NCBI GenBank assembly: GCA_040954595.2
Contig: CM082594.2
Location: forward strand, 1,630,247-1,694,246
Source of the DNA: Balanoglossus misakiensis
Taxonomy: Eukaryota; Animalia; Hemichordata
Direction: 5' to 3'
DNA length: 64,000 nt
Below, piece after piece: positions 11,173 to 35,503 of the stretch. Position 1 is the first letter of the stretch, and each line of letters opens with the position of its first letter. The translations under genes and the position numbers were made by a program. The notes beneath the pieces are model-generated. The model saw nothing but the letters and a program-made list of their open reading frames with translations. It was not told the origin of the DNA and did not search any database.

Positions 11173-11356
11173 ATGTATGTATGTATGTATGTATGTATGT
11201 ATGTATGTAGGTATGTATGTATGTATGTATGTATGTATGTATGTATGTATGTATGTATGTATGTATGTATGTATGTATGTATGTATGTATGTATGTATGT
11301 ATGTATGTATGTATGTATGTATGTATGTATGTATGTATGTATGTATGTATGTATGT
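11173..11356. repeat. (ATGT)46 microsatellite with one AGGT interruption
   Basis: Read directly; it explains the YVCM/YIHT pseudo-ORFs. Confidence 0.97.
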
Positions 11357-12172
11357 CTTGAAATTGAAGAAAGTACTCAGATTTTAGCATGGTTCTCACT
11401 CACATGAATGCTGTCATCTGTGTTGACAGGTAGACCACAATATTGCGTGGTGGCTTGCTGGGAATAAACGTTGTCTCCTCTGAACAGTTGCCACAGATAA
11501 ACAGGCCCACAGCAGATGAGTTGATTTCAGGAGGTGGCACTCCCCTTTTGAATGCTGGCATCTGTGTTGACAACGCAGATCCACTTCTCTGGCATATGTG
11601 TCAGCATCATGTTGCAGACAAGTTGTGTACTGTTTTTCTGGGTGAAGAAATGAAATTGACATCATTGGTAAATCTAAAACGGACTGGTTACTCCACTGAA
11701 ATTCAGCCTAAGTCTGTGTGATACGCAACTCAGACCAACTCAGCTCAGCTCACATGGCGCGTTGAATTAATCATTCGTTTGCCAGACGGCCTTATTTGAC
11801 CCCCCTGTTTACATGGCCTGTGAGGGCGTACTTTACGCGTTAATTTCTGGCAAGGCCTTCCAACCCTCAGTGGTGATCTCTTCACAGCTGTATTATGCCA
11901 GCTGTTTTAAAAGAACAGTGTCTTCTAAAATAAATCTAGATTGTTCCTTATGAATAAAATCTCAACGAGACAAAACTCATTCAAAAGGGTTGTCTATAGG
12001 CTACTTTCAAATTGGACATTTCGTTAATACAGTCAGAAACAGTGTTAATTTTAAAATGTTTGGGCCGGCTGCATTGTCAATAACACCGAGATTACCCATG
12101 CGCCGCAAATTATTGATGAAAGCGTTTCAACTGCAGGGTCACACAATACATATCAAATGAGAAGATGATTAC

Positions 12173-12562
12173 TCACCTTAGGCACCTGGGTTCGTGTTGA
12201 CACTCCCCTTTTGGGGAGCGAAAGCACGTCTTTCGTGAAATGTTTTGGGGTCGCATTTCCTGGACAATTTGCTCTGGGCGGATGCATAGCTTTTCGTTGC
12301 AAAGATGAGAACACTCCAACTGTCTGCCCACCAATTGCACCCCGTTAATTAGGAGTGCAATGTGCTGGACATAGGCGGTTAGAGTGTTCTCATCTTTGAA
12401 CGTAATTGAGCCATAGCCGTTACGACAAGCTGCACCCGTCCAGAGCACACAGTCGCCGGAAACGCGACTCCTTCTGGCGAGGATGCCGCTCAAACGCTCC
12501 TTGGCGTTAGCTGAGATGCCGTTGAGCTTGGCCGAAGTATAGAGCAAGTTGACTTCTGCCAA
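12173..12562 (-). CDS. His-Cys box / His-Me finger endonuclease-like protein (I-PpoI family; zinc-binding loop of homing endonuclease), possibly degenerate
   Basis: Motifs CVLWTG...NGYG and SHLCNEKLCIRPEQIVQEMRPQNISRKTC...CQHEPRCLR match the I-PpoI pattern SHLC....C..P.H....E...N..R..C......C.H...C. The start is TTG (mutated ATG or acceptor GGCAG|), and one Zn-ligand His is Gln. Confidence 0.8.
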   Translation of the reverse strand: MAEVNLLYTSAKLNGISANAKERLSGILARRSRVSGDCVLWTGAACRNGYGSITFKDENTLTAYVQHIALLINGVQLVGRQLECSHLCNEKLCIRPEQIVQEMRPQNISRKTCFRSPKGECQHEPRCLR

Positions 12563-13344
12563 GCAAGATCAAATGACAGTGTTTACGCAAGATGCCGTAA
12601 ATCAGCGAAAAGGTGCGGCGAATGATGTGGGAGAGCGTCATATAATTGGCTATGTACTAGTCAAATTTGGGCTGACAAGATGCTGCCCACCAGGAGCTCG
12701 CGGCAAACGTCTAAAGCCTCTTTTAATGTGATCAATTTACACCCGTGACATAATTAATAGGTTTGGGTTTTCAGAAGTGTCTCTGCGTCAAAATGCCAAG
12801 CAAATAACATGTAAATTCATCATCGTTGGAAAACGAATATAACAGTCATATCTTTTAGACCATCCTCTGTTTATTAGCCCCCTATTGCAATTAATTACCG
12901 TCCCTATCTTATATTGGAGGGAACGGGTTTGTCTTGGCATGTTATGCAAAACACTTGAAAGATGAATTTTTTTAAAAAAAAATGACGTTTATGACATACA
13001 GATGTAACCGACCCCATAAGGTCCCAATGATATATATTTACATCATACACCAAATTGGACTTAAAAACCAAAAATTGAAAGCCGCTGGAGTTTCTGCGAC
13101 TATGAACTCAACGTAAGCTGGACACTACTCACTCCGAGCCCGACCTGGTAATTTGTATGTTGTCCATCGAGCGCCTATAGCTTAGACCTATACAGGAGAG
13201 AACGGTTTATGAAGTTATGTTCAACAAATATATATGATCATGGAATTAGAGAATTTGGAGAAAAAAAATATAATTAAAAATGGACGTTTACGACGACAAA
13301 AAGGAAGACTGTTTAATGCAAAAGTTAAGAAAAAGGAAAAATTC

Positions 13345-13464
13345 AAGGCTACGGCACGTGGTATTCCCAGGCGGTCACCCATCCAAGTACTAACCACGCC
13401 CAACGCACCTTAACTTCGGTGATCGGACGAGAACCGGTGTATTCGACGTGGTATGGCCGTAGGC
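13345..13464 (-). rRNA. 5S rRNA (variants C57G, G117C)
   Basis: 120-nt GCCTACGGCCATACCACG...CCGTAGCCTT with internal control region and T5 terminator. Confidence 0.92.
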
Positions 13465-14403
13465 AAACACTGCTTGAATTTCTACAATTATTAAGCAAAC
13501 GGAAGCTTCACTAACACATAGGCGTACACACAGAGCACGCGGCACGATAATTGTGTGCGTGGCCAGCTGATTGACCATATAATTTATATGGGAGAGAGCG
13601 GTTTTGTCTTGTTATATCCTACAAAAAGTGACCATATTAAAGTGGAGAAATAATGACCTGATAATTTGTGTGGCCGATCGACCGTCCCTATCTAAGGCCT
13701 ATATTGGTATGTTATGCAAGACACACTATTCGAAATAACGCCTGTCCGACAGTCCGAGACTGGTTGTTTTTCCATCAGACTGATAGTAAAAAAGTTACCA
13801 GTCCGGCGGACAGGTTGAATTTAGCGTGGAGTTGACTTGTTTGCGGTATCATAGACGTACGTGACCCCATCGTGACCCTGGCTGTCCGGGATAGCACCAC
13901 CAACGACATCTTTTAGACCATCCTCTGTTTATTAGCCCCCTATTGCAATTAATTACCGTCCCTATCTTATATTGGAGGGAACGGGTTTGTTTTGGCATGT
14001 TATGCAAAACACTTGAAAGATGAATTTTAAAAAAAAAAAATGGCGTTTATGACATACAGATGTAACCGACCCCATAAGGTCCCAATGATATATATTTACA
14101 TCATACACCAAATTGGACTTAAAAACCAAAAATTGAAAGCCGCTGGAGTTTCTGCGACTATGAACTCAACGTAAGCTGGACACTACTCACTCCGAGCCCG
14201 ACCTGGTAATTTGTATGTTGTCCATCGAGCGCCTATAGCTTAGACCTATACAGGAGAGAACGGTTTATGAAGTTATGTTCAACAAAAATATATGATCATG
14301 GAATTAGAGAATTTGGACGAAAAAAAATATAATTAAAAATGGACGTTTACGACGACAAAAAGGAAGACTGTTTAATGCAAAAGTTAAGAAAAAGGAAAAA
14401 TTC

Positions 14404-14523
14404 AAGCCTACGGCACGTGGTATTCCCAGGCGGTCACCCATCCAAGTACTAACCACGCCCAACGCAGCTTAACTTCGGTGATCGGACGAGAACCGGTGTA
14501 TTCGACGTGGTATGGCCGTAGGC
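14404..14523 (-). rRNA. 5S rRNA (array reference sequence)
   Basis: Full 120-nt metazoan 5S with box A and box C. Confidence 0.95.
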
Positions 14524-15463
14524 AAACACTGCTTGAATTTCTACAATTATTAAGCAAACGGAAGCTTCACTAACACATAGGCGTACACACAGAGCACGCG
14601 GCACGATAATTGTGTGCGTGGCCAGCTGATTGACCATATAATTTATATGGGAGAGAGCGGTTTTGTCTTGTTATATCCTACAAAAAGTGACCATATTAAA
14701 GTGGAGAAATAATGACCTGATAATTTGTGTGGCCGATCGACCGTCCCTATCTAAGGCCTATATTGGTATGTTATGCAAGACACACTATTCGAAATAACGC
14801 CTGTCCGACAGTCCGAGACTGGTTGTTTTTCCATCAGACTGATAGTAAAAAAGTTACCAGTCCGGCGGACAGGTTGAATTTAGCGTGGAGTTGACTTGTT
14901 TGCGGTATCATAGACGTACGTGACCCCATCGTGACCCTGGCTGTCCGGGATAGCACCACCAACGACATCTTTTAGACCATCCTCTGTTTATTAGCCCCCT
15001 ATTGCAATTAATTACCGTCCCTATCTTATATTGGAGGGAACGGGTTTGTTTTGGCATGTTATGCAAAACACTTGAAAGATGAATTTTAAAAAAAAAAAAA
15101 TGGCGTTTATGACATACAGATGTAACCGACCCCATAAGGTCCCAATGATATATATTTACATCATACACCAAATTGGACTTAAAAACCAAAAATTGAAAGC
15201 CGCTGGAGTTTCTGCGACTATGAACTCAACGTAAGCTGGACACTACTCACTCCGAGCCCGACCTGGTAATTTGTATGTTGTCCATCGAGCGCCTATAGCT
15301 TAGACCTATACAGGAGAGAACGGTTTATGAAGTTATGTTCAACAAAAATATATGATCATGGAATTAGAGAATTTGGACGAAAAAAAATATAATTAAAAAT
15401 GGACGTTTACGACGACAAAAAGGAAGACTGTTTAATGCAAAAGTTAAGAAAAAGGAAAAATTC

Positions 15464-15583
15464 AAGCCTACGGCACGTGGTATTCCCAGGCGGTCACCCA
15501 TCCAAGTACTAACCACGCCCAACGCAGCTTAACTTCGGTGATCGGACGAGAACCGGTGTATTCGACGTGGTATGGCCGTAGGC
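15464..15583 (-). rRNA. 5S rRNA (array reference sequence)
   Basis: Full 120-nt copy. Confidence 0.95.
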
Positions 15584-16523
15584 AAACACTGCTTGAATTT
15601 CTACAATTATTAAGCAAACGGAAGCTTCACTAACACATAGGCGTACACACAGAGCACGCGGCACGATAATTGTGTGCGTGGCCAGCTGATTGAACATATA
15701 ATTTTTATGGGAGAGAGCGGTTTTGTCTTGTTATATCCTACAAAAAGTGACCATATTAAAGTGGAGAAATAATGACCTGATAATTTGTGTGGCCGATCGA
15801 CCGTCCCTATCTAAGGCCTATATTGGTATGTTATGCAAGACACACTATTCGAAATAACGCCTGTCCGACAGTCCGAGACTGGTTGTTTTTCCATCAGACT
15901 GATAGTAAAAAAGTTACCAGTCCGGCGGACAGGTTGAATTTAGCGTGGAGTTGACTTGTTTGCGGTATCATAGACGTACGTGACCCCATCGTGACCCTGG
16001 CTGTCCGGGATAGCACCACCAACGACATCTTTTAGACCACCCTCTGTTTATTAGCCCCCTATTGCAATTAATTACCGTCCCTATCTTATATTGGAGGGAA
16101 CGGGTTTGTTTTGGCATGTTATGCAAAACACTTGAAAGATGAATTTTTAAAAAAAAAAAATGGCGTTTATGACATACAGATGTAACCGACCCCATAAGGT
16201 CCCAATGATATATATTTACATCATACACCAAATTGGACTTAAAAACCAAAAATTGAAAGCCGCTGGAGTTTCTGCGACTATGAACTCAACGTAAGCTGGA
16301 CACTACTCACTCCGAGCCCGACCTGGTAATTTGTATGTTGTCCATCGAGCGCCTATAGCTTAGACCTATACAGGAGAGAACGGTTTATGAAGTTATGTTC
16401 AACAAAAATATATGATCATGGAATTAGAGAATTTGGACGAAAAAAAATATAATTAAAAATGGACGTTTACGACGACAAAAAGGAAGACTGTTTAATGCAA
16501 AAGTTAAGAAAAAGGAAAAATTC

Positions 16524-16643
16524 AAGCCTACGGCACGTGGTATTCCCAGGCGGTCACCCATCCAAGTACTAACCACGCCCAACGCAGCTTAACTTCGGTG
16601 ATCGGACGAGAACCGGTGTATTCGACGTGGTATGGCCGTAGGC
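16524..16643 (-). rRNA. 5S rRNA (array reference sequence)
   Basis: Full 120-nt copy. Confidence 0.95.
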
Positions 16644-17581
16644 AAACACTGCTTGAATTTCTACAATTATTAAGCAAACGGAAGCTTCACTAACACATAG
16701 GCGTACACACAGAGCACGCGGCACGATAATTGTGTGCGTGGCCAGCTGATTGACCATATAATTTATATGGGAGAGAGCGGTTTTGTCTTGTTATATCCTA
16801 CAAAAAGTGACCATATTAAAGTGGAGAAATAATGACCTGATAATTTGTGTGGCCGATCGACCGTCCCTATCTAAGGCCTATATTGGTATGTTATGCAAGA
16901 CACACTATTCGAAATAACGCCTGTCCGACAGTCCGAGACTGGTTGTTTTTCCATCAGACTGATAGTAAAAAAGTTACCAGTCCGGTGGACAGGTTGAATT
17001 TAGCGTGGAGTTGACTTGTTTGCGGTATCATAGACGTACGTGACCCCATCGTGACCCTGGCTGTCCGGGATAGCACCACCAACGACATCTTTTAGACCAT
17101 CCTCTGTTTATTAGCCCCCTATTGCAATTAATTACCGTCCCTATCTTATATTGGAGGGAACGGGTTTGTCTTGGCATGTTATGCAAAACACTTGAAAGAT
17201 GAATTTTTTTTTAAAAAAATGACGTTTATGACATACAGATGTAACCGACCCCATAAGGTCCCAATGATATATATTTACATCATACACCAAATTGGACTTA
17301 AAAACCAAAAATTGAAAGCCGCTGGAGTTTCTGCGACTATGAACTCAACGTAAGCTGGACACTACTCACTCCGAGCCCGACCTGGTAATTTGTATGTTGT
17401 CCATCGAGCGCCTATAGCTTAGACCTATACAGTAGAGAACGGTTTATGAAGTTATGTTCAACAAAAATATATGATCATGGAATTAGAGAATTTGGAGAAA
17501 AAAAATATAATTAAAAATGGACGTTTACGACGACAAAAAGGAAGACTGTTTAATGCAAAAGTTAAGAAAAAGGAAAAATTC

Positions 17582-17701
17582 AAGCCTACGGCACGTGGTA
17601 TTCCCAGGCGGTCACCCATCCAAGTACTAACCACGCCCAACGCAGCTTAACTTCAGTGATCGGACGAGAACCGGTGTATTCGACGTGGTATGGCCGTAGG
17701 C
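17582..17701 (-). rRNA. 5S rRNA (C47T)
   Basis: Full 120-nt copy. Confidence 0.93.
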
Positions 17702-18646
17702 CAACACTGCTTGAATTTCTACAATTATTAAGCAAACGGACGCTTCACTAAGACATAGGCGTACACACAGAGCACGCGGCACGATAATTGTGTGCGTGAC
17801 CAGCTGATTGACCGACCCGATCTTATAATTTATATGGGAGAGAGCGGTTTTGTCTTGTTATATCCTACAAAAAGTGACCATATTAAAGTGGAGAAATAAT
17901 GACCTGATAATTTGTGTGGCCGATCGACCGTCCCTATCTAAGGCCTATATTGGTATGTTATGCAAGACACACTATTCGAAATAACGCCTGTCCGACAGTC
18001 CGAGACTGGTTGTTTTTCCATCAGACTGATAGTAAAAAAGTTACCAGTCCGGCGGACAGGTTGAATTTAGCGTGGAGTTGACTTGTTTGCGGTATCATAG
18101 ACGTACGTGACCCCATCGTGACCCTGGCTGTCCGGGATAGCACCACCAACGATATCTTTTAGACCATCCTCTGTTTATTAGCCCCCTATTGCAATTAATT
18201 ACCGTCCCTATCTTATATTGGAGGGAACGGGTTTGTCTTGGCATGTTATGCAAAACACTTGAAAGATGATTTTTTTAAAAAAAAAATGACGTTTATGACA
18301 TACAGATGTAACCGACCCCATAAGGTCCCAATGATATATATTTACATCATACACCAAATTGGACTTAAAAACCAAAAATTGAAAGCCGCTGGAGTTTCTG
18401 CGACTATGAACTCACGTAAGCTGGACACTACTCACTCCGAGCCCGACCTGGTAATTTGTATGTTGTCCATCGAGCGCCTATAGCTTAGACCTATACAGGA
18501 GAGAACGGTTTATGAAGTTATGTTCAACAAAAATATATGATCATGGAATTAAAGAATTTGGAGAAAAAAATATAATTAAAAATGGACGTTTACGACGACA
18601 AAAAGGAAGACTGTTTAATGCAAAAGTTAAGAAAAAGGAAAAATTC

Positions 18647-18766
18647 AAGCCTACGGCACGTGGTGTTCCCAGGCGGTCACCCATGCAAGTACTAACCACG
18701 CCCAACGCAGCTTAACTTCGGTGATCGGACGAGAACCGGTGTATTCGACGTGGTATGGCCGTAGGC
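18647..18766 (-). rRNA. 5S rRNA (G82C, T102C)
   Basis: Full 120-nt copy. Confidence 0.92.
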
Positions 18767-19034
18767 AAACACTGCTTGAATTTCTACAATTATTAAGCAA
18801 ACGGAAGCTTCACTAACACATAGGCGTACACACAGAGCACGCGGCACGATAATTGTGTGCGTGGCCAGCTGATTGACCGACCCTATCTTATAATTTATAT
18901 GGGAGAGAGCGGTTTTGACTTGTTATATCCTACAAAAAGTGACCATATTAAAGTGGAGAAATAATGACCTGATAATTTGTGTGGCCGATCGACCGTCCCT
19001 ATGTAAGGCCTATATTGGTATGTTATGCAAGACA

Positions 19035-19376
19035 CAACTTCCGCCGCCGTTAAAAAAATATTTGTGCTTGTCGAAAAAAAAGTTTCACTGTTCCCTAAAA
19101 AGTTACAAAGTAGCACTTGAAAAAAATAATAGCGCCCCCATGAAAAAGTTTGTCAGTAGCAATAGAAAGAGCGCCCCCATAAGTTGTGTAACTAGAAATT
19201 ATATTAAAATATATTTACATCTGTAAAATACAATTTTCACCCGCGAAAAGTAATGTTACTTAAAAAAAGTAATACAAAATTAACTATTTCTTTCTGAAAA
19301 TAAAAAAATTCTATGTAGTATAGATAATATTTTATCTCAAGTGTTAGAAGTTTATTTGGGAAAAAAATCTTAAAAT
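19035..19376 (-). repeat. 342-bp non-rDNA filler at the first inversion junction; inverted copy of 58969-59310
   Basis: Reverse complement matches 58969-59310 with about 5 differences by eye; 1-2-bp microhomologies at both ends. Confidence 0.93.
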
Positions 19377-19677
19377 CGGACTGTCGGACAGGCGTTATTT
19401 GGAATAGTGTGTCTTGCATAACATACCAATATAGGCCTTAGATAGGGACGGTCGATCGGCCACACAAATTATCAGGTCATTATTTCTCCACTTTAATATG
19501 GTCACTTTTTGTAGGATATAACAAGACAAAACCGCTCTCTCCCATATAAATTATAAGATAGGGTCGGTCAATCAGCTGGCCACGCACACAATTATCGTGC
19601 CGCGTGCTCTGTGTGTACGCCTATGTGTTAGTGAAGCTTCCGTTTGCTTAATAATCGTAGAAATTCAAGCAGTGTTT

Positions 19678-19797
19678 GCCTACGGCCATACCACGTCGAA
19701 TACACCGGTTCTCGTCCGATCACCGAAGTTAAGCTGCGTTGGACGTGGTTAGTACTTGGATGGGTGACCGCCTGGGAATACCACGTGCCGTAGCCTT
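19678..19797 (+). rRNA. 5S rRNA (G66A, G117C)
   Basis: Full 120-nt copy. Confidence 0.92.
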
Positions 19798-20990
19798 GAA
19801 TTTTTCCTTTTTCTTAACTTTTGCATTAAACAGTCTTCCTTTTTGTCGTCGTAAACGTCCATTTTTAATTATTTTTTTTTCTCCAAATTCTTTAATTCCA
19901 TGATCATATATTTTTGTTGAACATAACTTCATAAACCGTTCTCTCCTGTATAGGTCTAAGCTATAGGCGCTCGATGGACAACATACAAATTACCAGGTCG
20001 GGCTCGGAGTGAGTAGTGTCCAGCTTACGTTGAGTTCATTGTCGCAGAAATTCAAGCAGTCTTCATTACATTGTTTTTAAACTTTCCTATTAGGCCTAAA
20101 TAGTCTATTTATTATTTGTCGTCATATACATCAACTTCTTTCTTTCTTTAAATTCATGATTTCTATAACTACCTCAATTCCATGATCATTCAAGTTTTTT
20201 TTTTTTGCAGAACATAGCAAAACAAAACCGTTCGCTCTCGTGCTGTTTGCGTGTGTTAGTACTAGGCTAAAGCTTCGTTTGGGTAAATAGTCGCAGAAAC
20301 TCCAGCGGCTTTCAATTTTTGGTTTTTAAGTCCAATTTGGTGTATGATGTTAATATACCATTGGGACCCTATGGGGTCGGTTACATCTGTATGTCATAAA
20401 CGTCATTTTTTTTTTTTTAAAATCATCTTTCAAGTGTTTTGCATAACATGCCAAGACAAACCAGTTCCCTCCAATATAAGATAGGGACGGTAATTAATTG
20501 CAATAGGGGCCTAATAAACAAAGGATGGTCTAAAAGATATCGTTGGTGGTGCTATCCCGGACAGCCAGGGTCACGATGGGGTCACGTACGTCTATGATAC
20601 CGCAAACAAGTCAACTCCACGCTAAAGTCAACCTGTCCGCCGGACTGGTAACTTTTTTACTATCAGTCTGATGGAAAAACAACCAGTCTCGGACTGTCGG
20701 ACAGGCGTTATTTGGAATAGTGTGTCTTGCATAACATACCAATATAGGCCTTAGATAGGGACGGTCGATCGGCCACACAAATTATCAGGTCATTATTTCT
20801 CCACTTTAATATGGTCACTTTTTGTAGGATATAACAAGACAAAACCGCCCTCTCCCATATAAATTATAAGATAGGGCCGGTCAATCAGCTGGCCACGCAC
20901 ACAATTATCGTGCCGCGTGCTCTGTGTGTACGCCTATGTGTTAGTGAAGCTTCCGTTTGCTTAATAATTGTAAAAATTCAAGCAGTGTTT

Positions 20991-21110
20991 GCCTACGGCC
21001 ATACCACGTCGAATACACCGGTTCTCGTCCGATCACCGAAGTTAAGCTGCGTTGGGCGTGCTTAGTACTTGGATGGGTGACCGCCTGGGAATACCACGTG
21101 CCGTAGGCTT
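20991..21110 (+). rRNA. 5S rRNA (G71C)
   Basis: Full 120-nt copy. Confidence 0.93.
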
Positions 21111-22302
21111 GAATTTTTCCTTTTTCTTAACTTTTGCATTAAACAGTCTTCCTTTTTGTCGTCGTAAACGTCCATTTTTAATTATTTTTTTTCTCCAAAT
21201 TCTTTAATTCCATGATCATATATGTTTGTTGAACATAAATTCATAAACCGTTCTCTCCTGTATAGGTCTAAGCTATAGGCGCTCGATGGACAACATACAA
21301 ATTACCAGGTCGGGCTCGGAGTGAGTAGTGTCCAGCTTACGTTGAGTTCATTGTCGCAGAAATTCAAGCAGTCTTTATTACAATGTTTTTAAACTTTCCT
21401 ATTAGGCCTAATTAGTCTATTTATTATTTGTCGTCATATACATCAACTTCTTTCTTTCTTTAAATTCATGATTTCTATAACTACCTCAATTCCACGATCA
21501 TTCAAGTTTTTTTTTTTTGCAGAACATAGCAAAACAAAACCGTTCGCACTCGTGCTGTTTGCGTGTGTTAGTACTAGGCTAAAGCTTCGTTTGGGTAAAT
21601 AGTCGCAGAAACTCCCGCGGCTTTCAATTTTTGGTTTTTAAGTCCAATTTGGTGTATGATGTTAATATACCATTGGGACCTTATGGGGTCGGTTAAATCT
21701 GTATGTCATAAACGTCATTTAAAAAAAAAAAAATTCATCTTTCAAGTGTTTTGCATAACATGCCAAGACAAACCCGTTCCCTCCAATATAAGATAGGGAC
21801 GGTAATTAATTGCAATAGGGGCCTAATAAACAGAGGATGGTCTAAAAGATATCGTTGGTGGTGCTATCCCGGACAGCCAGGGTCACGATGGGGTCACGTA
21901 CATCTATGATACCGCAAACAAGTCAACTCCACGCTAAATTCAACCTGTCCGCCGGACTGGTAACTTTTTTACTATCAGTCTGATGGAAAAACAACCAGTC
22001 TCGGACTGTCGGACAGGCGTTATTTCGAATAGTGTGTCTTGCATAACATACCAATATAGGCCTTAGATAGGGACGGTCGATCGGCCACACAAATTATCAG
22101 GTCATTATTTCTCCACTTTAATATGGTCACTTTTTGTAGGATATAATAAGACAAAACCGCTCTCTCCCATATAAATTATAAGATCGGGTCGGTCAATCAG
22201 CTGGCCACGCACACAATTATCGTGCCGCGTGCTCTGTGTGTACGCCTATGTGTTAGTGAAGCTTCCGTTTGCTTAATAATCGTAGAAATTCAAGCAGTGT
22301 TT

Positions 22303-22422
22303 GCCTACGGCCATACCACGTCGAATACACCGGTTCTCGTCCGATCACCGAAGTTAAGCTGCGTTGGGCGTGCTTAGTACTTGGATGGGTGACCGCCTGG
22401 GAATACCACGTGCCGTAGGCTT
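22303..22422 (+). rRNA. 5S rRNA (G71C)
   Basis: Full 120-nt copy. Confidence 0.93.
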
Positions 22423-23614
22423 GAATTTTTCCTTTTTCTTAACTTTTGCATTAAACAGTCTTCCTTTTTGTCGTCGTAAACGTCCATTTTTAATTATTTT
22501 TTTTCTCCAAATTCTTTAATTCCATGATCATATATGTTTGTTGAACATAAATTCATAAACCGTTCTCTCCTGTATAGGTCTAAGCTATAGGCGCTCGATG
22601 GACAACATACAAATTACCAGGTCGGGCTCGGAGTGAGTAGTGTCCAGCTTACGTTGAGTTCATTGTCGCAGAAATTCAAGCAGTCTTCATTACATTGTTT
22701 TTAAACTTTCCTATTAGGCCTAAATAGTCTATTTATTAATTGTCGTCATATACATCAACTTCTTTCTTTCTTTAAATTCATGATTTCTATAACTACCTCA
22801 ATTCCACGATCATTCAAGTTTGTTTTTTTTTGCAGAACATAGCAAAACAAAACCGTTCGCTCTCGTGCTGTTTGCGTGTGTTAGTACTAGGCTAAAGCTT
22901 CGTTTGGGTAAATAGTCGCAGAAACTCCCGCGGCTTTCAATTTTTGGTTTTTTAGTCCAATTTGGTGTATGATGTTAATATACCATCGGGACCTTATGGG
23001 GTCGGTTAAATCTGTATGTCATAAACGTCATTTAAAAAAAAAAAATTCATCTTTCAAGTGTTTTGCATAACATGCCAAGACAAACCCGTTCCCTCCAATA
23101 TAAGATAGGGACGGTAATTAATTGCAATAGGGGCCTAATAAACAGAGGATGGTCTAAAAGATATCGTTGGTGGTGCTATCCCGGACAGCCAGGGTCACGA
23201 TGGGGTCACGTACATCTATGATACCGCAAACAAGTCAACTCCACGCTAAATTCAACCTGTCCGCCGGACTGGTAACTTTTTTACTATCAGTCTGATGGAA
23301 AAACAACCAGTCTCGGACTGTCGGACAGGCGTTATTTCGAATAGTGTGTCTTGCATAACATACCAATATAGGCCTTAGATAGGGACGGTCGATCGGCCAC
23401 ACAAATTATCAGGTCATTATTTCTCCACTTTAATATGGTCACTTTTTGTAGGATATAACAAGACAAAACCGCTCTCTCCCATATAAATTATAAGATAGGG
23501 CCGGTCAATCAGCTGGCCACGCACACAATTATCGTGCCGCGTGCTCTGTGTGTACGCCTATGTGTTAGTGAAGCTTCCGTTCGCTTAATAATTGTAGAAA
23601 TTCAAGCAGTGTTT

Positions 23615-23734
23615 GCCTACGGCCATACCACGTCGAATACACCGGTTCTCGTCCGATCACCGAAGTTAAGCTGCGTTGGGCGTAGTTAGTACTTGGATGG
23701 GTGACCGCCTGGGAATACCACGTGCCGTAGGCTT
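23615..23734 (+). rRNA. 5S rRNA (G70A)
   Basis: Full 120-nt copy. Confidence 0.93.
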
Positions 23735-24923
23735 GAATTTTTCCTTTTTCTTAACTTTTGCATTAAACAGTCTTCCTTTTTGTCGTCGTAAACGTCCATT
23801 TTTAATTTTTTTTTTCTCCAAATTCTTTAATTCCATGATCATATATTTTTGTTGAACATAACTTCATAAACCGTTCTCTCCTATATAGGTCTAAGCTATA
23901 GGCGCTCGATGGACAACATACAAATTACCAGGTCGGGCTCGGAGTGAGTAGTGTCCAGCTTACGTTGAGTTCATTGTCGCAGAAATTCAAGCAGTCTTTA
24001 TTACATTGTTTTTAAACTTTCCTATTAGGCCTAAATAGTCTATTTATTATTTGTCGTCATATACATCAACTTCTTTCTTTCTTTAAATTCATGATTTCTA
24101 TAACTACCTCAATTCCACGATCATTCAAGTTTGTTTTTTTTGCAGAACATAGCAAAACAAAACCGTTCGCTCTCGTGCTGTTTGCGTGTGTTAGTACTAG
24201 GCTAAAGCTTCGTTTGGGTAAATAGTCGCAGAAACTCCCGCGGCTTTCAATTTTTGGTTTTTAAGTCCAATTTGGTGTATGATGTTAATATACCATAGGG
24301 ACCTTATGGGGTCGGTTAAATCTGTATGTCATAAACGTCATTTTAAAAAAAAAATTAATCTTTCAAGTGTTTTGCATAACATGCCAAGACAAACCCGTTC
24401 CCTCCAATATAAGATAGGGACGGTAATTAATTGCAATAGGGGCCTAATAAACAGAGGATGGTCTAAAAGATATCGTTGGTGGTGCTATCCCGGACAGCCA
24501 GGGTCACGATGGGGTCACGTACGTCTATGATACCGCAAACAAGTCAACTCCACGCTAAATTCAACCTGTCCGCCGGACTGGTAACTTTTTTACTATCAGT
24601 CTGATGGAAAAACAACCAGTCTCGGACTGTCGGACAGGCGTTATTTCGAATAGTGTGTCTTGCATAACATACCAATATAGGCCTTAGATAGGGACGGTCG
24701 ATCGGCCACACAAATTATCAGGTCATTATTTCTCCACTTTAATATGGTCACTTTTTGTAGGATATAACAAGACAAAACCGCTCTCTCCCATATAAATTAT
24801 AAGATAGGGCCGGTCAATCAGCTGGCCACGCACACAATTATCGTGCCGCGTGCTCTGTGTGTACGCCTATGTGTTAGTGAAGCTTCCGTTCGCTTAATAA
24901 TTGTAGAAATTCAAGCAGTGTTT

Positions 24924-25043
24924 GCCTACGGCCATACCACGTCGAATACACCGGTTCTCGTCCGATCACCGAAGTTAAGCTGCGTTGGGCGTAGTTAGTA
25001 CTTGGATGGGTGACCGCCTGGGAATACCACGTGCCGTAGGCTT
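24924..25043 (+). rRNA. 5S rRNA (G70A)
   Basis: Full 120-nt copy. Confidence 0.93.
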
Positions 25044-26232
25044 GAATTTTTCCTTTTTCTTAACTTTTGCATTAAACAGTCTTCCTTTTTGTCGTCGTAA
25101 ACGTCCATTTTTAATTTTTTTTTTCTCCAAATTCTTTAATTCCATGATCATATATTTTTGTTGAACATAACTTCATAAACCGTTCTCTCCTATATAGGTC
25201 TAAGCTATAGGCGCTCGATGGACAACATACAAATTACCAGGTCGGGCTCGGAGTGAGTAGTGTCCAGCTTACGTTGAGTTCATTGTCGCAGAAATTCAAG
25301 CAGTCTTTATTACATTGTTTTTAAACTTTCCTATTAGGCCTAAATAGTCTATTTATTATTTGTCGTCATATACATCAACTTCTTTCTTTCTTTAAATTCA
25401 TGATTTCTATAACTACCTCAATTCCACGATCATTCAAGTTTGTTTTTTTTGCAGAACATAGCAAAACAAAACCGTTCGCTCTCGTGCTGTTTGCGTGTGT
25501 TAGTACTAGGCTAAAGCTTCGTTTGGGTAAATAGTCGCAGAAACTCCCGCGGCTTTCAATTTTTGGTTTTTAAGTCCAATTTGGTGTATGATGTTAATAT
25601 ACCATAGGGACCTTATGGGGTCGGTTAAATCTGTATGTCATAAACGTCATTTTAAAAAAAAAATTAATCTTTCAAGTGTTTTGCATAACATGCCAAGACA
25701 AACCCGTTCCCTCCAATATAAGATAGGGACGGTAATTAATTGCAATAGGGGCCTAATAAACAGAGGATGGTCTAAAAGATATCGTTGGTGGTGCTATCCC
25801 GGACAGCCAGGGTCACGATGGGGTCACGTACGTCTATGATACCGCAAACAAGTCAACTCCACGCTAAATTCAACCTGTCCGCCGGACTGGTAACTTTTTT
25901 ACTATCAGTCTGATGGAAAAACAACCAGTCTCGGACTGTCGGACAGGCGTTATTTCGAATAGTGTGTCTTGCATAACATACCAATATAGGCCTTAGATAG
26001 GGACGGTCGATCGGCCACACAAATTATCAGGTCATTATTTCTCCACTTTAATATGGTCACTTTTTGTAGGATATAACAAGACAAAACCGCTCTCTCCCAT
26101 ATAAATTATAAGATAGGGTCGGTCAATCAGCTGGCCACGCACACAATTATCGTGCCGCGTGCTCTGTGTGTACGCCTATGTGTTAGTGAAGCTTCCTTTT
26201 GCTTAATAATCGTAGAAATTCAAGCAGTGTTT

Positions 26233-26352
26233 GCCTACGGCCATACCACGTCGAATACACCGGTTCTCGTCCGATCACCGAAGTTAAGCTGCGTTGGGCG
26301 TGCTTAGTACTTGGATGGGTGACCGCCTGGGAATACCACGTGCCGTAGGCTT
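26233..26352 (+). rRNA. 5S rRNA (G71C)
   Basis: Full 120-nt copy. Confidence 0.93.
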
Positions 26353-27546
26353 GAATTTTTCCTTTTTCTTAACTTTTGCATTAAACAGTCTTCCTTTTTG
26401 TCGTCGTAAACGTCCATTATTAATTATTTTTTTTCTCCAAATTCTTTAATTCCATGATCATATATGTTTGTTGAACATAAATTCATAAACCGTTCTCTCC
26501 TGTATAGGTCTAAGCTATAGGCGCTCGATGGACAACATACAAATTACCAGGTCGGGCTCGGAGTGAGTAGTGTCCATCTTACGTTGAGTTCATTGTCGCA
26601 GAAATTCAAGCAGTCTTCATTACATTGTTTTTAAACTTTCCTATTAGGCCTAAATAGTCTATTTATTATTTGTCGTCATATACATCAACTTCTTTCTTTC
26701 TTTAAATTCATGATTTCTATAACTACCTCAATTCCACGATCATTCAAGTTTGTTTTTTTTGCAGAACATAGCAAAACAAAACCGTTCGCTCTCGTGCTGT
26801 TTGCGTGTGTTAGTACTAGGCTAAAGCTTCGTTTGGGTAAATAGTCGCAGAAACTCCAGCGGCTTTCAATTTTTGGTTTTTAAGTCCAATTTGGTGTATG
26901 ATGTTAATATACCATAGGGACCTTATGGGGTCGGTTAAATCTGTATGTCATAAACGTCATTTAAAAAAAAAATCATCTTTCAAGTGTTTTGCATAACATG
27001 CCAAGACAAACCCGTTCCCTCCAATATAAGATAGGGACGGTAATTAATTGCAATAGGGGCCTAATAAACAGAGGATGGTCTAAAAGATATCGTTGGTGGT
27101 GCTATCCCGGACAGCCAGGGTCACGATGGGGTCACGTACGTCTATGATACCGCAAACAAGTCAACTCCACGCTAAATTCAACCTGTCCGCCGGACTGGTA
27201 ACTTTTTTTTAGTATCAGTCTGATGGAAAAACAACCAGTCTCGGACTGTCGGACAGGCGTTATATCGAATAGTGTGTCTTGCATAACATACCAATATAGG
27301 CCTTAGATAGGGACGGTCGATCGGCCACACAAATTATCAGGTCATTAATTATTTCTCCACTTTAATATGGTCACTTTTTGTAGGATATAACAAGACAAAA
27401 CCGCTCTCTCCCATATAAATTATAAGATAGGGTCGGTCAATCATCTGGCCACGCACACAATTATCGTGCCGCGTGCTCTGTGTGTACGCCTATGTGTTAG
27501 TGAAGCTTCCGTTTGCTTAATAATTGTAGAAATTCAAGCAGTGTTT

Positions 27547-27666
27547 GCCTACGGCCATACCACGTCGAATACACCGGTTCTCGTCCGATCACCGAAGTTA
27601 AGCTGCGTTGGGCGTGCTTAGTACTTGGATGGGTGACCGCCTGGGAATACCACGTGCCGTAGGCTT
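27547..27666 (+). rRNA. 5S rRNA (G71C)
   Basis: Full 120-nt copy. Confidence 0.93.
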
Positions 27667-28853
27667 GAATTTTTCCTTTTTCTTAACTTTTGCATTAAAC
27701 AGTCTTCCTTTTTGTCGTCGTAAACGTCCATTTTTAATTATTTTTTTTCTCCAAATTCTTTAATTCCATGATCATATATGTTTGTTGAACATAAATTTAT
27801 AAACCGTTCTCTCCTGTATAGGTCTAAGCTATAGGCGCTCGATGGACAACATACAAATTACCAGGTCGGGCTCGGAGTGAGTAGTGTCCATCTTACGTTG
27901 AGTTCATTGTCGCAGAAATTCAAGCAGTCTTCATTACATTGTTTTTAAACTTTCCTATTAGGCCTAAATAGTCTATTTATTATTTGTCGTCATATACATC
28001 AACTTCTTTCTTTCTTTAAATTCATGATTTCTATAACTACCTCAATTCCACGATCATTCAAGTTTGTTTTTTTTTGCAGAACATAGCAAAACAAAACCGT
28101 TCGCTCTCGTGCTGTTTGCGTGTGTTAGTACTAGGCTAAAGCTTCGTTTGGGTAAATAGTCGCAGAAACTCCCGCGGCTTTCAATTTTTGGTTTTTAAGT
28201 CCAATTTGGTGTATGATGTTAATATACCATTGGGACCTTATGGGGTCGATTAAATCTGTATGTCATAAACGTCATTTAAAAAAAATCATCTTTCAAGTGT
28301 TTTGCATAACATGCCAAGACAAACCCGTTCCCTCCAATATAAGATAGGGACGGTAATTAATTGCAATAGGGGCCTAATAAACAGAGGATGGTCTAAAAGA
28401 TATCGTTGGTGGTGCTATCCCGGACAGCCAGGGTCACGATGGGGTCACGTACGTCTATGATACCGCAAACAAGTCAACTCCACGCTAAATTCAACCTGTC
28501 CGCCGGACTGGTAACTTTTTTACTATCAGTCTGATGGAAAAACAACCAGTCTCGGACTGTCGGACAGGCGTTATTTCGAATAGTGTGTCTTGCATAACAT
28601 ACCAATATAGGCCTTAGATAGGGACGGTCGATCGGCCACACAAATTATCAGGTCATTATTTCTCCACTTTAATATGGTCACTTTTTGTAGGATATAACAA
28701 GACAAAACCGCTCTCTCCCATATAAATTATAAGATAGGGTCGGTCAATCAGCTGGCCACGCACACAATTATCGTGCCGCGTGCTCTGTGTGTACGCCTAT
28801 GTGTTAGTGAAGCTTCCGTTTGCTTAATAATCGTAGAAATTCAAGCAGTGTTT

Positions 28854-28973
28854 GCCTACGGCCATACCACGTCGAATACACCGGTTCTCGTCCGATCACC
28901 GAAGTTAAGCTGCGTTGGGCGTGCTTAATACTTGAATGGGTGACCGCCTGGGAATACCACGTGCCGTAGGCTT
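28854..28973 (+). rRNA. 5S rRNA variant (G71C/G75A/G82A)
   Basis: Full length with loop E and box C substitutions. Confidence 0.88.
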
Positions 28974-30130
28974 GAATTTTTCCTTTTTCTTAACTTTTGC
29001 ATTAAACAGTCTTCCTTTTTGTCGTCGTAAACGTCCATTTTTAATTATATATTTTTTTCTCCAAATTCTTTAATTCCATGGTCTTATATTTTTGTTGAAC
29101 ATAACTTCATAAACCGTTCTCTCCTGTATAGGTCTAAGCTATAGGCGCTCGATGGACAACATACAAATTACCAGGTCGGGCTCGGAGTGAGTAGTGTCCA
29201 GCTTACGTTGAGTTCATTGTCGCAGAAATTCAAGCAGTCTTCGTTACATTGTTTTTAATTTTTCCTATTAGGCCTAAATAGTCTATTTATTGTTTATCGT
29301 CATATACATCAACTTCTTTCATGATTTCTATAACTACCTCAATTCCACGATCATTCAAGTTTTTTTTTTTTTGCAGAACATAGCAAAACAAAACCGTTCG
29401 CTCTCGTGCTGTTTGCGTGTGTTAGTACTAGGCTAAAGCTTCGTTTGGGTAAATAGTCGCAGAAACTCCAGCGGCTTTCAATTTTTGGTTTTTAAGTCCA
29501 ATTTGGTGTATGATGTTAATATACCATAGGGACCTTATGGGGTCGGTTAAATCTGTATGTCATAAACGTCATTTAAAAAAAAAAAATCATCTTTCAAGTG
29601 TTTTGCATAACATGCCAAGACAAACCCGTTCCCTCCAATATAAGATAGGGACGGTAATTAATTGCAATAGGGGCCTAATAAACAGAGGATGGTCTAAAAG
29701 ATATCGTTGGTGGTGCTATCCCGGACAGCCAGGGTCACGATGGGGTCACGTACGTCTATGATACCGCAAACAAGTCAACTCCACGCTAAATTCAACCTGT
29801 CCGCCGGACTGGTAACTTTTTTTTAGTATCAGTCTGATGGAAAAACAACCAGTCTCGGACTGTCGGACAGGCGTTATATCGAATAGTGTGTCTTGCATAA
29901 CATACCAATATAGGCCTTAGATAGGGACGGTCGATCGGCCACACAAATTATCAGGTCATTAATTATTTCTCCACTTTAATATGGTCACTTTTTGTAGGAT
30001 ATAACAAGACAAAACCGCTCTCTCCCATATAAATTATAAGATAGGGTCGGTCAATCATCTGGCCACGCACACAATTATCGTGCCGCGTGCTCTGTGTGTA
30101 CGCCTATGTGTTAGTGAAGCTTCCGTTTGC

Positions 30131-30140
30131 TTAATAATTG
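30131..30140 (+). promoter_or_regulatory. TATA-like element at -30..-21 of 5S (shown for one unit; present in all full units)
   Basis: TTAATAATTG at a fixed distance upstream of +1, as in many Pol III type-1 5S genes. Confidence 0.5.
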
Positions 30141-30160
30141 TAGAAATTCAAGCAGTGTTT

Positions 30161-30280
30161 GCCTACGGCCATACCACGTCGAATACACCGGTTCTCGTCC
30201 GATCACCGAAGTTAAGCTGCGTTGGGCGTGCTTAGTACTTGGATGGGTGACCGCCTGGGAATACCACGTGCCGTAGGCTT
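30161..30280 (+). rRNA. 5S rRNA (G71C)
   Basis: Full 120-nt copy. Confidence 0.93.
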
Positions 30281-30283
30281 GAA

Positions 30284-30295
30284 TTTTTCCTTTTT
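30284..30295 (+). terminator. Pol III terminator T5-CC-T5 (shown for one unit)
   Basis: GGCTT-GAA-TTTTT-CC-TTTTT follows the genes. Confidence 0.75.
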
Positions 30296-31468
30296 CTTAA
30301 CTTTTGCATTAAACAGTCTTCCTTTTTGTCGTCGTAAACGTCCATTTTTAATTATTTTTTTTCTCCAAATTCTTTAATTCCATGATCATATATGTTTGTT
30401 GAACATAAATTTATAAACCGTTCTCTCCTGTATAGGTCTAAGCTATAGGCGCTCGATGGACAACAAACAAATTACCAGGTCGGGCTCGGAGTGAGTAGTG
30501 TCCATCTTACGTTGAGTTCATTGTCGCAGAAATTCAAGCAGTCTTCATTACATTGTTTTTAAACTTTCCTATTAGGCCTAAATAGTCTATTTATTATTTG
30601 TCGTCATATACATCAACTTCTTTCTTTCTTTAAATTCATGATTTCTATAACTACCTCAATTCCACGATCATTCAAGTTTGTTTTTTTTTGCAGAACATAG
30701 CAAAACAAAACCGTTCGCTCTCGTGCTGTTTGCGTGTGTTAGTACTAGGCTAAAGCTTCGTTTGGGTAAATAGTCGCAGAAACTCCCGCGGCTTTCAATT
30801 TTTGGTTTTTAAGTCCAATTTGGTGTATGATGTTAATATACCATTGGGACCTTATGGGGTCGATTAAATCTGTATGTCATAAACGTCATTTAAAAAAAAA
30901 TCATCTTTCAAGTGTTTTGCATAACATGCCAAGACAAACCCGTTCCCTCCAATATAAGATAGGGACGGTAATTAATTGCAATAGGGGCCTAATAAACAGA
31001 GGATGGTCTAAAAGATATCGTTGGTGGTGCTATCCCGGACAGCCAGGGTCACGATGGGGTCACGTACGTCTATGATACCGCAAACAAGTCAACTCCACGC
31101 TAAATTCAACCTGTCCGCCGGACTGGTAACTTTTTTACTATCAGTCTGATGGAAAAACAACCAGTCTCGGACTGTCGGACAGGCGTTATTTCGAATAGTG
31201 TGTCTTGCATAACATACCAATATAGGCCTTAGATAGGGACGGTCGATCGGCCACACAAATTATCAGGTCATTATTTCTCCACTTTAATATGGTCACTTTT
31301 TGTAGGATATAACAAGACAAAACCGCTCTCTCCCATATAAATTATAAGATAGGGTCGGTCAATCAGCTGGCCACGCACACAATTATCGTGCCGCGTGCTC
31401 TGTGTGTACGCCTATGTGTTAGTGAAGCTTCCGTTTGCTTAATAATCGTAGAAATTCAAGCAGTGTTT

Positions 31469-31588
31469 GCCTACGGCCATACCACGTCGAATACACCGGT
31501 TCTCGTCCGATCACCGAAGTTAAGCTGCGTTGGGCGTGCTTAATACTTGAATGGGTGACCGCCTGGGAATACCACGTGCCGTAGGCTT
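31469..31588 (+). rRNA. 5S rRNA variant (G71C/G75A/G82A)
   Basis: Full length. Confidence 0.88.
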
Positions 31589-32768
31589 GAATTTTTCCTT
31601 TTTCTTAACTTTTGCATTAAACAGTCTTCCTTTTTGTCGTCGTAAACGTCCATTTTTAATTATATATTTTTTTCTCCAAATTCTTTAATTCCATGGTCTT
31701 ATATTTTTGTTGAACATAACTTCATAAACCGTTCTCTCCTGTATAGGTCTAAGCTATAGGCGCTCGATGGACAACATACAAATTACCAGGTCGGGCTCGG
31801 AGTGAGTAGTGTCCAGCTTACGTTGAGTTCATTGTCGCAGAAATTCAAGCAGTCTTCGTTACATTGTTTTTAATTTTTCCTATTAGGCCTAAATAGTCTA
31901 TTTATTGTTTATCGTCATATACATCAACTTCTTTCATGATTTCTATAACTACCTCAATTCCACGATCATTCAAGTTTTTTTTTTTTGCAGAACATAGCAA
32001 AACAAAACCGTTCGCTCTCGTGCTGTTTGCGTGTGTTAGTACTAGGCTAAAGCTTCGTTTGGGTAAATAGTCGCAGAAACTCCAGCGGCTTTCAATTTTT
32101 GGTTTTTAAGTCCAATTTGGTGTATGATGTTAATATACCATTGGGACCTTATGGGGTCGGTTAAATCTGTATGTCATAAACGTTATTTTAAAAAAAAAAT
32201 TCATCTTTCAAGTGTTTTGCATAACATGCCAAGACAAACCCGTTCCCTCCAATATAAGATAGGGACGGTAATTAATTGCAATAGGGGCCTAATAAACAGA
32301 GGATTGTCTAAAAGATATCGTTGGTGGTGCTATCCCGGACAGCCAGGGTCACGATAGGGTCACGTACGTCTATGATACCGCAAACAAGTCAACTCCACGC
32401 TAAATTCAACCTGTCCGCCGGACTGGTAACTTTTTTACTATCAGTCTGATGGAAAAACAACCAGTCTCGGACTGTCGGACAGGCGTTATTTCGAATAGTG
32501 TGTCTTGCATAACATACCAATATAGGCCTTAGATAGGGACGGTCGATCGGCCACACAAATTATCAGGTCATTATTTCTCCACTTTAATATGGTCACTTTT
32601 TGTAGGATATAACAAGACAAAACCGCTCTCTACCATATAAATTATAAGATAGGGTCGGTCAATCAGCTGGCCACGCACACAATTATCGTGCCGCGTGCTC
32701 TGTGTGTACGCCTATGTGTTAGTGAAGCTTCCGTTTGCTTAATAATCGTAGAAATTCAAGCAGTGTTT

Positions 32769-32888
32769 GCCTACGGCCATACCACGTCGAATACACCGGT
32801 TCTCGTCCGATCACCGAAGTTAAGATGCGTTGGGCGTGGTTAGTACCTGGATGGGTGACCGCCTGGGAATACCACGTGCCGTAGGCTT
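32769..32888 (+). rRNA. 5S rRNA (C57A, T79C)
   Basis: Full length. Confidence 0.9.
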
Positions 32889-34076: not shown

Positions 34077-34196
34077 GCCTACGGCCATACCACGTCGAAT
34101 ACACCGGTTCTCGTCCGATCACCGAAGTTAAGCTGCGTTGGGCGTGCTTAATACTTGAATGGGTGACCGCCTGGGAATACCACGTGCCGTAGGCTT
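34077..34196 (+). rRNA. 5S rRNA variant (G71C/G75A/G82A)
   Basis: Full length. Confidence 0.88.
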
Positions 34197-35383: not shown

Positions 35384-35503
35384 GCCTACGGCCATACCAC
35401 GTCGAATACACCGGTTCTCGTCCGATCACCGAAGTTAAGCTGCGTTGGGCGTGCTTAGTACTTGGATGGGTGACCGCCTGGGAATACCACGTGCCGTAGG
35501 CTT
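35384..35503 (+). rRNA. 5S rRNA (G71C)
   Basis: Full length. Confidence 0.93.

What the first reader, a model, noticed from the sequence alone, without database searches (positions are those of the whole stretch)
12173..12848. I-PpoI-like His-Cys box nuclease ORF abutting a rearranged 5S rDNA array
Seen: a 129-codon ORF with the His-Cys box signature (catalytic His in SHLC, metal-binding Asn in PQNISR, intact second Zn site C..C.H...C) starts about 290 bp from the first base of the array. Established: His-Cys box homing endonucleases of group I introns cut nuclear rDNA, and related His-Me finger nucleases are carried by the animal KolobokP transposon lineage. No group I intron or transposase is visible here. 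Inference: this is either a transposon relic or a free-standing nuclease linked to, and possibly cutting or spreading, the 5S array, whose two inversion junctions look like break-repair products. A TTG start and His->Gln (CAA) in the first Zn site suggest this copy is decaying, although the flanking GGCAG| and AG|GTGAGT sites could make it an exon.
Basis: partly seen in the sequence, partly recalled or inferred. Interest (0 to 1): 0.8.

Follow-up and report, generated by a model that had tools for sequence, protein, structure and literature searches.

The report
Broken transposon nuclease with coding hairpin
This is a damaged copy of a homing-type DNA-cutting enzyme gene, likely left by a jumping gene and likely next to the 5S RNA gene array only by accident; its odd feature is a predicted long hairpin inside the coding sequence, over the active-site codons.

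Summary
ORF 12173-12568 (-) is a His-Cys box nuclease: Pfam PF05551 above cut-off, and its predicted fold matches I-PpoI best. Its closest kin are 119-172-aa animal proteins, including the KolobokP-9_CGi nuclease. Contigs of two DNA runs (one sample) show that 11400-12847 is a repeated sequence. Its majority form has an in-frame ATG (121 aa) and the Zn-site His, so this copy has decayed (8-bp loss at the start, His to Gln). A 5S link is not supported. The majority contig leaves the window exactly at the array edge. 0 of 160 related loci carry 5S, while 6 of 8 animal-type loci carry a facing KolobokP-type transposase. The array's breakpoints fall at 11 different unit positions. It is not a canonical KolobokP either: no facing transposase and no terminal direct repeat is seen. 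New here: a 114-nt fold-back (z -11.9) read in frame over the DNA-binding hairpin and SHLC codons. It is more perfect in the majority form and absent from 53 relatives. Unchecked notes on this genome place a hairpin-bearing nuclease in a Sola-like composite transposon, the likely parent. Verdict: transposon relic, new variant of a known kind, modest interest.

The parts
12173..12568 (-). His-Cys box (I-PpoI-like) nuclease reading frame; this copy has no start ATG and has Gln for the first-Zn-site His
12534..12535 (-). Place where the majority form has 8 more letters, which carry an in-frame ATG (121-aa protein, A at -3, G at +4)
   Evidence: table 4
12269..12271 (-). Codon 100: CAA (Gln) here; His in all laid contigs (7 in X1, 5 in X2) and in 17 of 17 aligned relatives
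12292..12405 (-). 114-nt fold-back inside the coding sequence (about aa 55-94: predicted DNA-binding beta-hairpin, helix and SHLC codons)
11400..12847 (.). Fragment of a repeated element that carries the ORF; left limit lies between 10928 and 11399, right end cut at the array
11173..11356 (.). (ATGT)46 microsatellite at or near the element's left limit
12848..57435 (.). 5S rDNA array, 32 genes, units of 1.06 and 1.31 kb, two inversions
19037..19375 (.). First inversion junction, filled by an inverted copy (97%) of 58957-59310 from the array's right flank
45284..45286 (.). Second inversion junction, a fold-back from unit position 385(+) to 358(-)
41746..42248 (.). 503-bp insertion in a 5S spacer: TTAA on both sides, AG...CT ends, about 17-bp terminal inverted repeat (Kolobok-type non-autonomous element)
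   Evidence: Kolobok hallmarks from PMC9587614

Best explanation
The ORF is a decayed copy of a homing-type nuclease gene within a fragment of a repeated element, likely a DNA transposon, and it likely abuts the 5S array only because a rearrangement cut the element at 12847. Shown: the protein family; the repeated nature of 11400-12847; the intact start codon and Zn-site His in the majority form and their loss here; the fold-back in the coding sequence. Inferred: intact copies elsewhere make a 121-aa two-zinc beta-beta-alpha-metal nuclease that serves the element's own spread, for example by cutting its terminal repeats to provoke unequal crossover (the untested KolobokP model, PMC9587614). 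The hairpin likely arose by polymerase template switching, with conserved codons copied into tolerant positions, and may lower expression. The array's inversions likely come from replication or recombination template switches, later spread by unequal crossover, with no site-specific cut. Parent element, given this reading: the Sola-like composite transposon of unchecked notes on this genome about 55%, a transposase-less KolobokP derivative about 30%, other about 15%.
For: Repeat: in run X2, long contigs over 11473-12847 have word depth 715-831 against 186-283 for near-identical contigs over 6412-10927. In X1, the majority contigs listed have 4200-7400 against 156-1700. Laid contigs differ from the window at 17 listed places in the 396-nt ORF, while flank contigs mostly differ at 0-4 places per 218-687 nt, so the window holds a minority form. 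Polarity: the majority letters give His100, Thr105 and Leu107, matching the ESRL/ESRM motif of the nearest relatives P0017 and P0045. No 5S tie: X2 contig 14 (252 nt, depth 831) matches to 12847 and then has 87 letters that do not fit 12848-13300. 0 of 160 fetched loci have a 5S match (best 24 nt, E 0.096). 6 of 8 animal-type loci (L001, L004-L007 clearly; L026 as a remnant; not L002, L003) have a facing transposase frame. P0157 equals the KolobokP-9_CGi nuclease over the 86 residues printed in Data S4 (compared by eye) and is 37% identical to the ORF over 110 aa. Breakpoints lie at unit positions 72, 358, 379, 385, 589, 593, 862, 1011, 1043, 1131 and 1233, and one inversion holds DNA copied from 40 kb away.
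Against: Word depth is not copy number, and X1/X2 are one sample that may be the window's own source. No transposase, terminal repeat or target duplication was found for this element in the window, so 'transposon' rests on repetition and on relatives. A segmental duplication would also raise depth. The 87 letters of contig 14 were not seen, and only 452 bp of the 5S unit was in the laid stretch; that they are not 5S is inferred from the contig's depth. Loci of relatives are short (1.2-3.8 kb) and from other species. Sequence look-ups found no look-alike among earlier findings, so the link to the Sola-like element is unverified. The tree does not place the ORF with support. No RNA data.
Confidence: 0.76

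Rival explanations
1. Intact copies encode a 5S-targeting nuclease. A cut in the spacer drew this copy to the array edge and caused the inversions.
For: The ORF starts about 310 bp from the array. I-PpoI-type enzymes come from rDNA introns (PMC9587614). The majority form looks intact, so it could act in trans. Resection could scatter breakpoints away from a cut site.
Against: The majority contig leaves at 12847. There are 11 different breakpoint positions, and the unit's two 14-bp near-palindromes (positions 416 and 763) are at none of them. No I-PpoI-like site within 4 mismatches lies in the array (site recalled from memory). 0 of 160 related loci carry 5S. The array also took up an unrelated Kolobok-type insertion.
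Confidence: 0.07
2. A small host gene family (domesticated nuclease, or a 5' exon of a longer spliced gene) multiplied by segmental duplication, not a transposon.
For: Depth in X2 is only 3-4 times the flank. No element ends or transposase are seen. A consensus donor overlaps the stop codon. 8 of 17 listed differences are synonymous against 23-26% expected (P 0.03-0.05).
Against: Relatives end at the same residue. No longer form scored among 4896 candidates (weak evidence). The raised depth covers under 2 kb with a sharp left limit. The synonymous count uses a partial list, and three of the synonymous changes lie in the hairpin stem.
Confidence: 0.11
3. The adjacency is an assembly artefact at the edge of a long tandem array, joining two repeats that are not neighbours.
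For: None of the 19 listed contigs bridges 12847/12848, and contigs ending there read as the ordinary 5S unit. Both sides are repeats.
Against: Contigs drop rare forms and only 19 of 716 pieces are listed. The array shows finely graded unit variants and a young insertion with clean ends, which points to a read-level assembly.
Confidence: 0.06

Closest known systems
KolobokP His-Me finger nuclease (Kojima and Bao 2022, PMC9587614)
   Same: Small stand-alone His-Cys box ORF in an animal repeat; same S-H, E and N core and two Zn sites; same short C-terminus; 37% identical to the KolobokP-9_CGi protein.
   Different: No facing Kolobok transposase within 800 bp of the stop (6-244 bp between frames in five related loci) or anywhere outside the array; no 450/660-bp terminal direct repeat with inverted ends; a coding hairpin that seven related loci lack.
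I-PpoI and other His-Cys box homing endonucleases of nuclear rDNA group I introns
   Same: Fold (Z 9.0-9.5, 112 residues aligned), catalytic His and Asn, two Zn sites.
   Different: No intron (Rfam). The alignment ends at I-PpoI residue 140 of 162-163, so the C-terminal tail (dimerisation role recalled) is missing. It does not interrupt an rRNA gene; the join is in the spacer, about 450 bp upstream of a 5S gene.
Dada transposons that target small-RNA gene arrays
   Same: A mobile element beside a multicopy small RNA gene.
   Different: Dada inserts within the repeated genes, and no homing-type nuclease is reported in it (PMC13565253 passage). Here no transposase is seen and no element interrupts the 5S genes in a fixed place.
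Template-switch inverted repeats in yeast coding sequences (Abraham and Hazkani-Covo 2021, PMC8604942, abstract and outline only)
   Same: Arm homogenisation inside reading frames that changes several neighbouring amino acids.
   Different: Those events change up to five residues; here about 45 base pairs span about 38 codons, including the active site.

Membership tests
His-Cys box nuclease (PF05551, I-PpoI group) | Profile match above curated cut-off | tested here: met
   36.2 bits against 27
His-Cys box nuclease (PF05551, I-PpoI group) | Catalytic His and Asn plus eight Zn ligands | tested here: met
   Met by the majority form; the window copy has Gln for one His, 7 of 8 ligands
His-Cys box nuclease (PF05551, I-PpoI group) | I-PpoI-like fold | tested here: met
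   Model pLDDT 91; VIA-align Z 9.5, rmsd 3.7, 112 aligned; Foldseek alone gave no hit under E 0.001
His-Cys box nuclease (PF05551, I-PpoI group) | Homodimer that cleaves a long semi-palindromic site | not testable with these tools
   Needs biochemistry; no complex prediction was run
Group I intron homing endonuclease | Lies in a group I intron within an rRNA gene | tested here: not met
   Rfam at gathering threshold finds only 5S genes in the window; the ORF lies outside the array
KolobokP (autonomous) | Facing DDD/E transposase on the opposite strand just downstream | tested here: not met
   tblastn with five locus transposases and a profile of six frames find nothing in 1-12900 or 57400-64000 (best profile E 0.83)
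KolobokP | Long terminal direct repeats of about 450 or 660 bp with short inverted ends | tested here: inconclusive
   None found in 8300-12900 or 57436-63400, but the copy is cut at the array, so ends may be lost
KolobokP | Nuclease nests among KolobokP nucleases in a tree | tested here: inconclusive
   Quick tree, long branch, no starred set holds it; nearest rows are P0017 and P0045, whose context is unknown
Sola-like composite element of earlier notes on this genome | Nuclease coding sequence forms a long hairpin | tested here: met
   z -11.9; the feature itself comes from unchecked notes
Sola-like composite element of earlier notes on this genome | Split transposase, SET gene, arrays of a 177-bp end module | tested here: inconclusive
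5S-targeting mobile element or nuclease | Copies recur at one position of the 5S unit | tested here: not met
   One copy at the edge; majority contig not joined to the unit; no common breakpoint; a genome-wide count was not possible

The most novel reading that the evidence does not exclude
An animal transposon outside the Kolobok superfamily carries an active His-Cys box nuclease whose gene doubles as a hairpin RNA. Selection has folded the DNA-binding and active-site codons into a 45-bp stem, which feeds Dicer or ADAR or slows translation and so throttles a self-cutting enzyme from inside its own reading frame.
Probability: 0.25. Interest if true: 0.7.

Novelty: new variant of a known kind. 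Interest (0 to 1): 0.4.

Why it matters
As a 5S-cutting system it would have been a first for animals, but the evidence points away from that. What remains is a lead on how homing-type nucleases persist in animal transposons. The family looks intact and repeated, lacks the KolobokP layout, and has a near-perfect hairpin written through its active-site codons. If selected, that would be a compact way to limit a dangerous enzyme, and the 121-aa majority form gives a small substrate for the untested KolobokP cleavage model. If neutral, it is an unusually large case of template switching rewriting a protein surface. This copy itself is a pseudogene, useful mainly as an outgroup showing that start codon, Zn ligand and hairpin decay together.

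Tried and rejected
No whole genome is held, so paralogues could not be counted or mapped. The word-based protein search with the ORF gave 4 candidates, none significant; the search for longer fused forms gave none of 4896 (weak). Locus scans with P0015, the ORF and alignment A4 found nothing. The 80 viral loci are partial, weak matches (best E 1e-11), used only in the 5S test. No RNA holder was listed, which says nothing on expression. The Atlas search with homologue P0017 returned HNH_3 and PF05551 clusters, mostly viral, with no useful context. The tree was the quick method, unresolved, with only 22 of 27 short non-pattern hits included. Frames downstream of the stop (11357-12170) gave no Pfam hit and no convincing exon; splicing from the donor to the acceptor at 11638 would add only about 9 residues (read by hand). 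A link between the nuclease and the right-flank TDP-43_N/HECT genes was considered: no shared sequence or matching ends were found, and no reads were laid there. Literature searches with no paper: His-Cys box + homing endonuclease + 5S rRNA; Sola + DNA transposon + SET domain + homing endonuclease; IS3EU + HECT + transposon; a six-term hairpin/I-PpoI search. 'KolobokP' gave 2 papers. Repbase and most subscription papers are not covered, and most of the KolobokP supplements were not read, so non-autonomous KolobokP families that keep the nuclease may exist there. In one search the L005 row folded a second nuclease copy in that locus, not the first.

Full report
OBSERVATION. The frame 12173-12568 (-) is open for 131 codons, 129 from the TTG at 12562, which is 286 bp from the array edge at 12848. 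It matches Pfam PF05551 at 36.2 bits (cut-off 27). I-PpoI is the best solved sequence (E 0.009). An AlphaFold model built on an 18-row alignment (pLDDT 91) aligns best to I-PpoI (Z 9.5, rmsd 3.7, 112 residues), ahead of I-HmuI (6.8) and Smad MH1 (5.9 or less) (a re-alignment of Foldseek's 150 best chains). Foldseek itself gave no hit below E 0.001. Rfam finds 32 5S genes and nothing else.

RELATIVES. A full HMMER scan gave 1501 proteins at E up to 0.001. From the 150 listed I picked by hand 17 single-stretch hits of 119-172 aa that reach the C-terminal Zn site. All 17 have His where the ORF has Gln100, and 15 of 17 end within four residues of the ORF's stop. All match PF05551. Named members are from a lancelet. 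P0157 equals the KolobokP-9_CGi nuclease over the stretch printed in Data S4 of PMC9587614 (by eye) and is 37% identical to the ORF. A metagenome scan with a closer alignment returned 80 loci. Of the eight best, animal-type ones (L001-L007, L026), five have a clear facing transposase frame, related to one another and resembling the KolobokP proteins printed in the supplement (by eye). L026 has a remnant, and L002 and L003 show none in their short flanks. None of the 160 loci fetched (80 metagenome, 80 viral) has a 5S match beyond 24 nt at E 0.096. A quick tree leaves the ORF on a long, unsupported branch nearest P0017 and P0045, which share its N-terminal LN and ESR-type motifs; their context is unknown.

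IT IS A DECAYED COPY OF A REPEAT. Three runs of one sample were listed, two holding the stretch; they may be the window's own source. Their contigs match the left flank closely (mostly 0-4 differences per 218-687 nt) at word depth 186-283 in X2 and 156-1700 in X1. Over 11473-12847, X2's long contigs have depth 715-831 and X1's majority contigs 4200-7400. Depth is no copy number, but the contigs also carry letters different from the window: 17 of the 40 substitutions shown lie in the ORF (16 more are not shown). At 12269 every laid contig (7 in X1, 5 in X2) gives His100. Eight extra letters at 12534-12535 give an in-frame ATG with A at -3 and G at +4 and a 121-aa product; the window's frame has only one ATG, 27 codons from the end. 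So the family looks intact and this copy has lost its start and a Zn ligand. Eight of the 17 differences are synonymous (23-26% expected, P 0.03-0.05), too few to read much into. The raised depth begins between 10928 and 11399, near the (ATGT)46 tract.

THE 5S LINK. X2 contig 14 (252 nt, depth 831) matches 12683-12847, and its last 87 letters fit nothing in 12848-13300. A contig of that depth is unlikely to run 87 letters into a unit whose summed depth is in the tens of thousands (inference), so the majority copies are likely not joined to the spacer here. Mapping the array on one unit gives breakpoints at 11 positions between 72 and 1233. The 593/379 deletion sits on a 36-bp imperfect direct repeat. 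The first inversion is filled with 339 bp copied from the right flank, 40 kb away, and the second is a fold-back with a 27-bp offset. These are marks of template switching and homology-driven deletion (inference), then spread by unequal crossover, since the same deletions recur four and seven times. They do not converge on a site, and the unit's two near-palindromes (416, 763) are at none of them. An unrelated TTAA-flanked Kolobok-type element also sits in one spacer. Action in trans by intact copies is not excluded, and the join itself is not bridged by any listed contig.

NOT A CANONICAL KOLOBOKP. KolobokP has a transposase on the opposite strand facing the nuclease, inside 450- or 660-bp terminal direct repeats (PMC9587614; parts 1-4 of 6 read; supplement list, file 1 part 1, search hits, file 3 part 102). 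In five related loci the two frames end 6-244 bp apart. Here neither tblastn nor a profile finds a transposase trace outside the array, 85 flanking frames give no relevant Pfam hit, and no such terminal repeat is seen. The copy is truncated, so lost ends are possible.

THE HAIRPIN. Positions 12292-12405 fold back on themselves: -65.1 kcal/mol, z -11.9, 0 of 200 shuffles as stable. The longest perfect arm is 17 nt here and 23 nt with the majority letters, against at most 11 in 200 codon shuffles and 7-12 in six related genes. The majority form folds at -78.9 with 45 Watson-Crick pairs, so the hairpin belongs to the family and is decaying in this copy. The same region of seven related loci has z between -1.3 and +0.6. 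A protein-level test (longest stem any coding of the protein allows around the catalytic His codon) gives 28 nt for this ORF and at most 14 for 53 relatives, many of them near-copies. Both arms are read in frame. The outer stem pairs the conserved LECSHLC codons with the variable beta-hairpin, and the inner stem pairs the conserved helix (IALL) with the variable loop. That pattern fits template switching filtered by selection on the protein (inference; mechanism as in PMC8604942, abstract and outline seen). Whether the hairpin is itself selected is open. Non-coding palindromes elsewhere in the window fold as well or better.

EARLIER NOTES. After these tests I consulted the scan's notes. Three unchecked reports on this genome describe 16-25-kb Sola-like composite transposons with a split transposase, a SET gene and a homing-type nuclease, two of them noting a hairpin in its coding sequence. 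Another note calls the animal a likely acorn worm (untested; hemichordates are not among the seven KolobokP phyla). The shared hairpin makes that element the likeliest parent, but sequence look-ups found no look-alike, so this is a lead, not support.

LITERATURE. A 2026 review calls the KolobokP cleavage model unconfirmed and says no homing-type nuclease is reported in the small-RNA-targeting Dada elements (PMC13565253, three passages). The 2017 His-Me classification lists the I-PpoI group for fungi only (PMC5714182, eight passages). Searches for a 5S link, a Sola link or a hairpin gave no paper; 'KolobokP' gave two. I-PpoI's C-terminal dimer tail and its homing site are recalled, not from a call.

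VERDICT. Real nuclease gene, dead copy, likely a transposon fragment, likely an accidental neighbour of the 5S array (0.76). A 5S-cutting role is unlikely (0.07). The in-frame hairpin and the non-KolobokP setting make it a new variant of a known kind; interest 0.4.

Noticed in passing
window 41746-42248: 503-bp insertion in a 5S spacer with TTAA on both sides, AG...CT ends and an about 17-bp terminal inverted repeat: a young Kolobok-type non-autonomous element, single in the window.
   Followed up: partly
window 59354-59722 and 60947-62704 (+): TDP-43 N-terminal domain (E 1e-15) followed by a HECT domain frame (E 2e-11) right of the array; possibly cargo of another transposon. The DNA just upstream (58957-59310) is what fills the first inversion junction.
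   Followed up: partly
window 44969, 45573, 48028, 55487: The same deletion (unit position 1233 to 72) removes the first 71 nt of a 5S gene and recurs four times, on both sides of the second inversion; the 593/379 deletion recurs seven times.
   Followed up: partly
window 671-7608 (-): Long frames (3660-5126, 6655-7608) and a weak 7tm_2 fragment (E 0.064) suggest a secretin/adhesion-type receptor gene; both runs show one extra base at 6693, so the window may carry an indel there.
   Followed up: no
window 11405-11572: 24-nt direct repeat 144 bp apart; contigs skip 72 bp (11430 to 11503) and depth peaks at 11464-11527, hinting at a 72-bp module within the element.
   Followed up: partly
window 280-395, 57715-57830, 60508-60656, 9056-9367: Palindromic or inverted-end repeats; the first three fold as well as or better than the ORF hairpin in a 120-nt scan.
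   Followed up: no
L005 2-310 and about 2607-2731: Two copies of the nuclease gene in one 2.8-kb contig with a transposase frame between them, as expected for a KolobokP multimer.
   Followed up: no
P0144: A 580-aa protein named 'His-Cys box protein' from the nematode Aphelenchoides besseyi matches the full two-zinc pattern; nematodes are not among the phyla listed for KolobokP.
   Followed up: no
window 1-762: Exact 325-bp duplication 437 bp apart at the start of the window.
   Followed up: no
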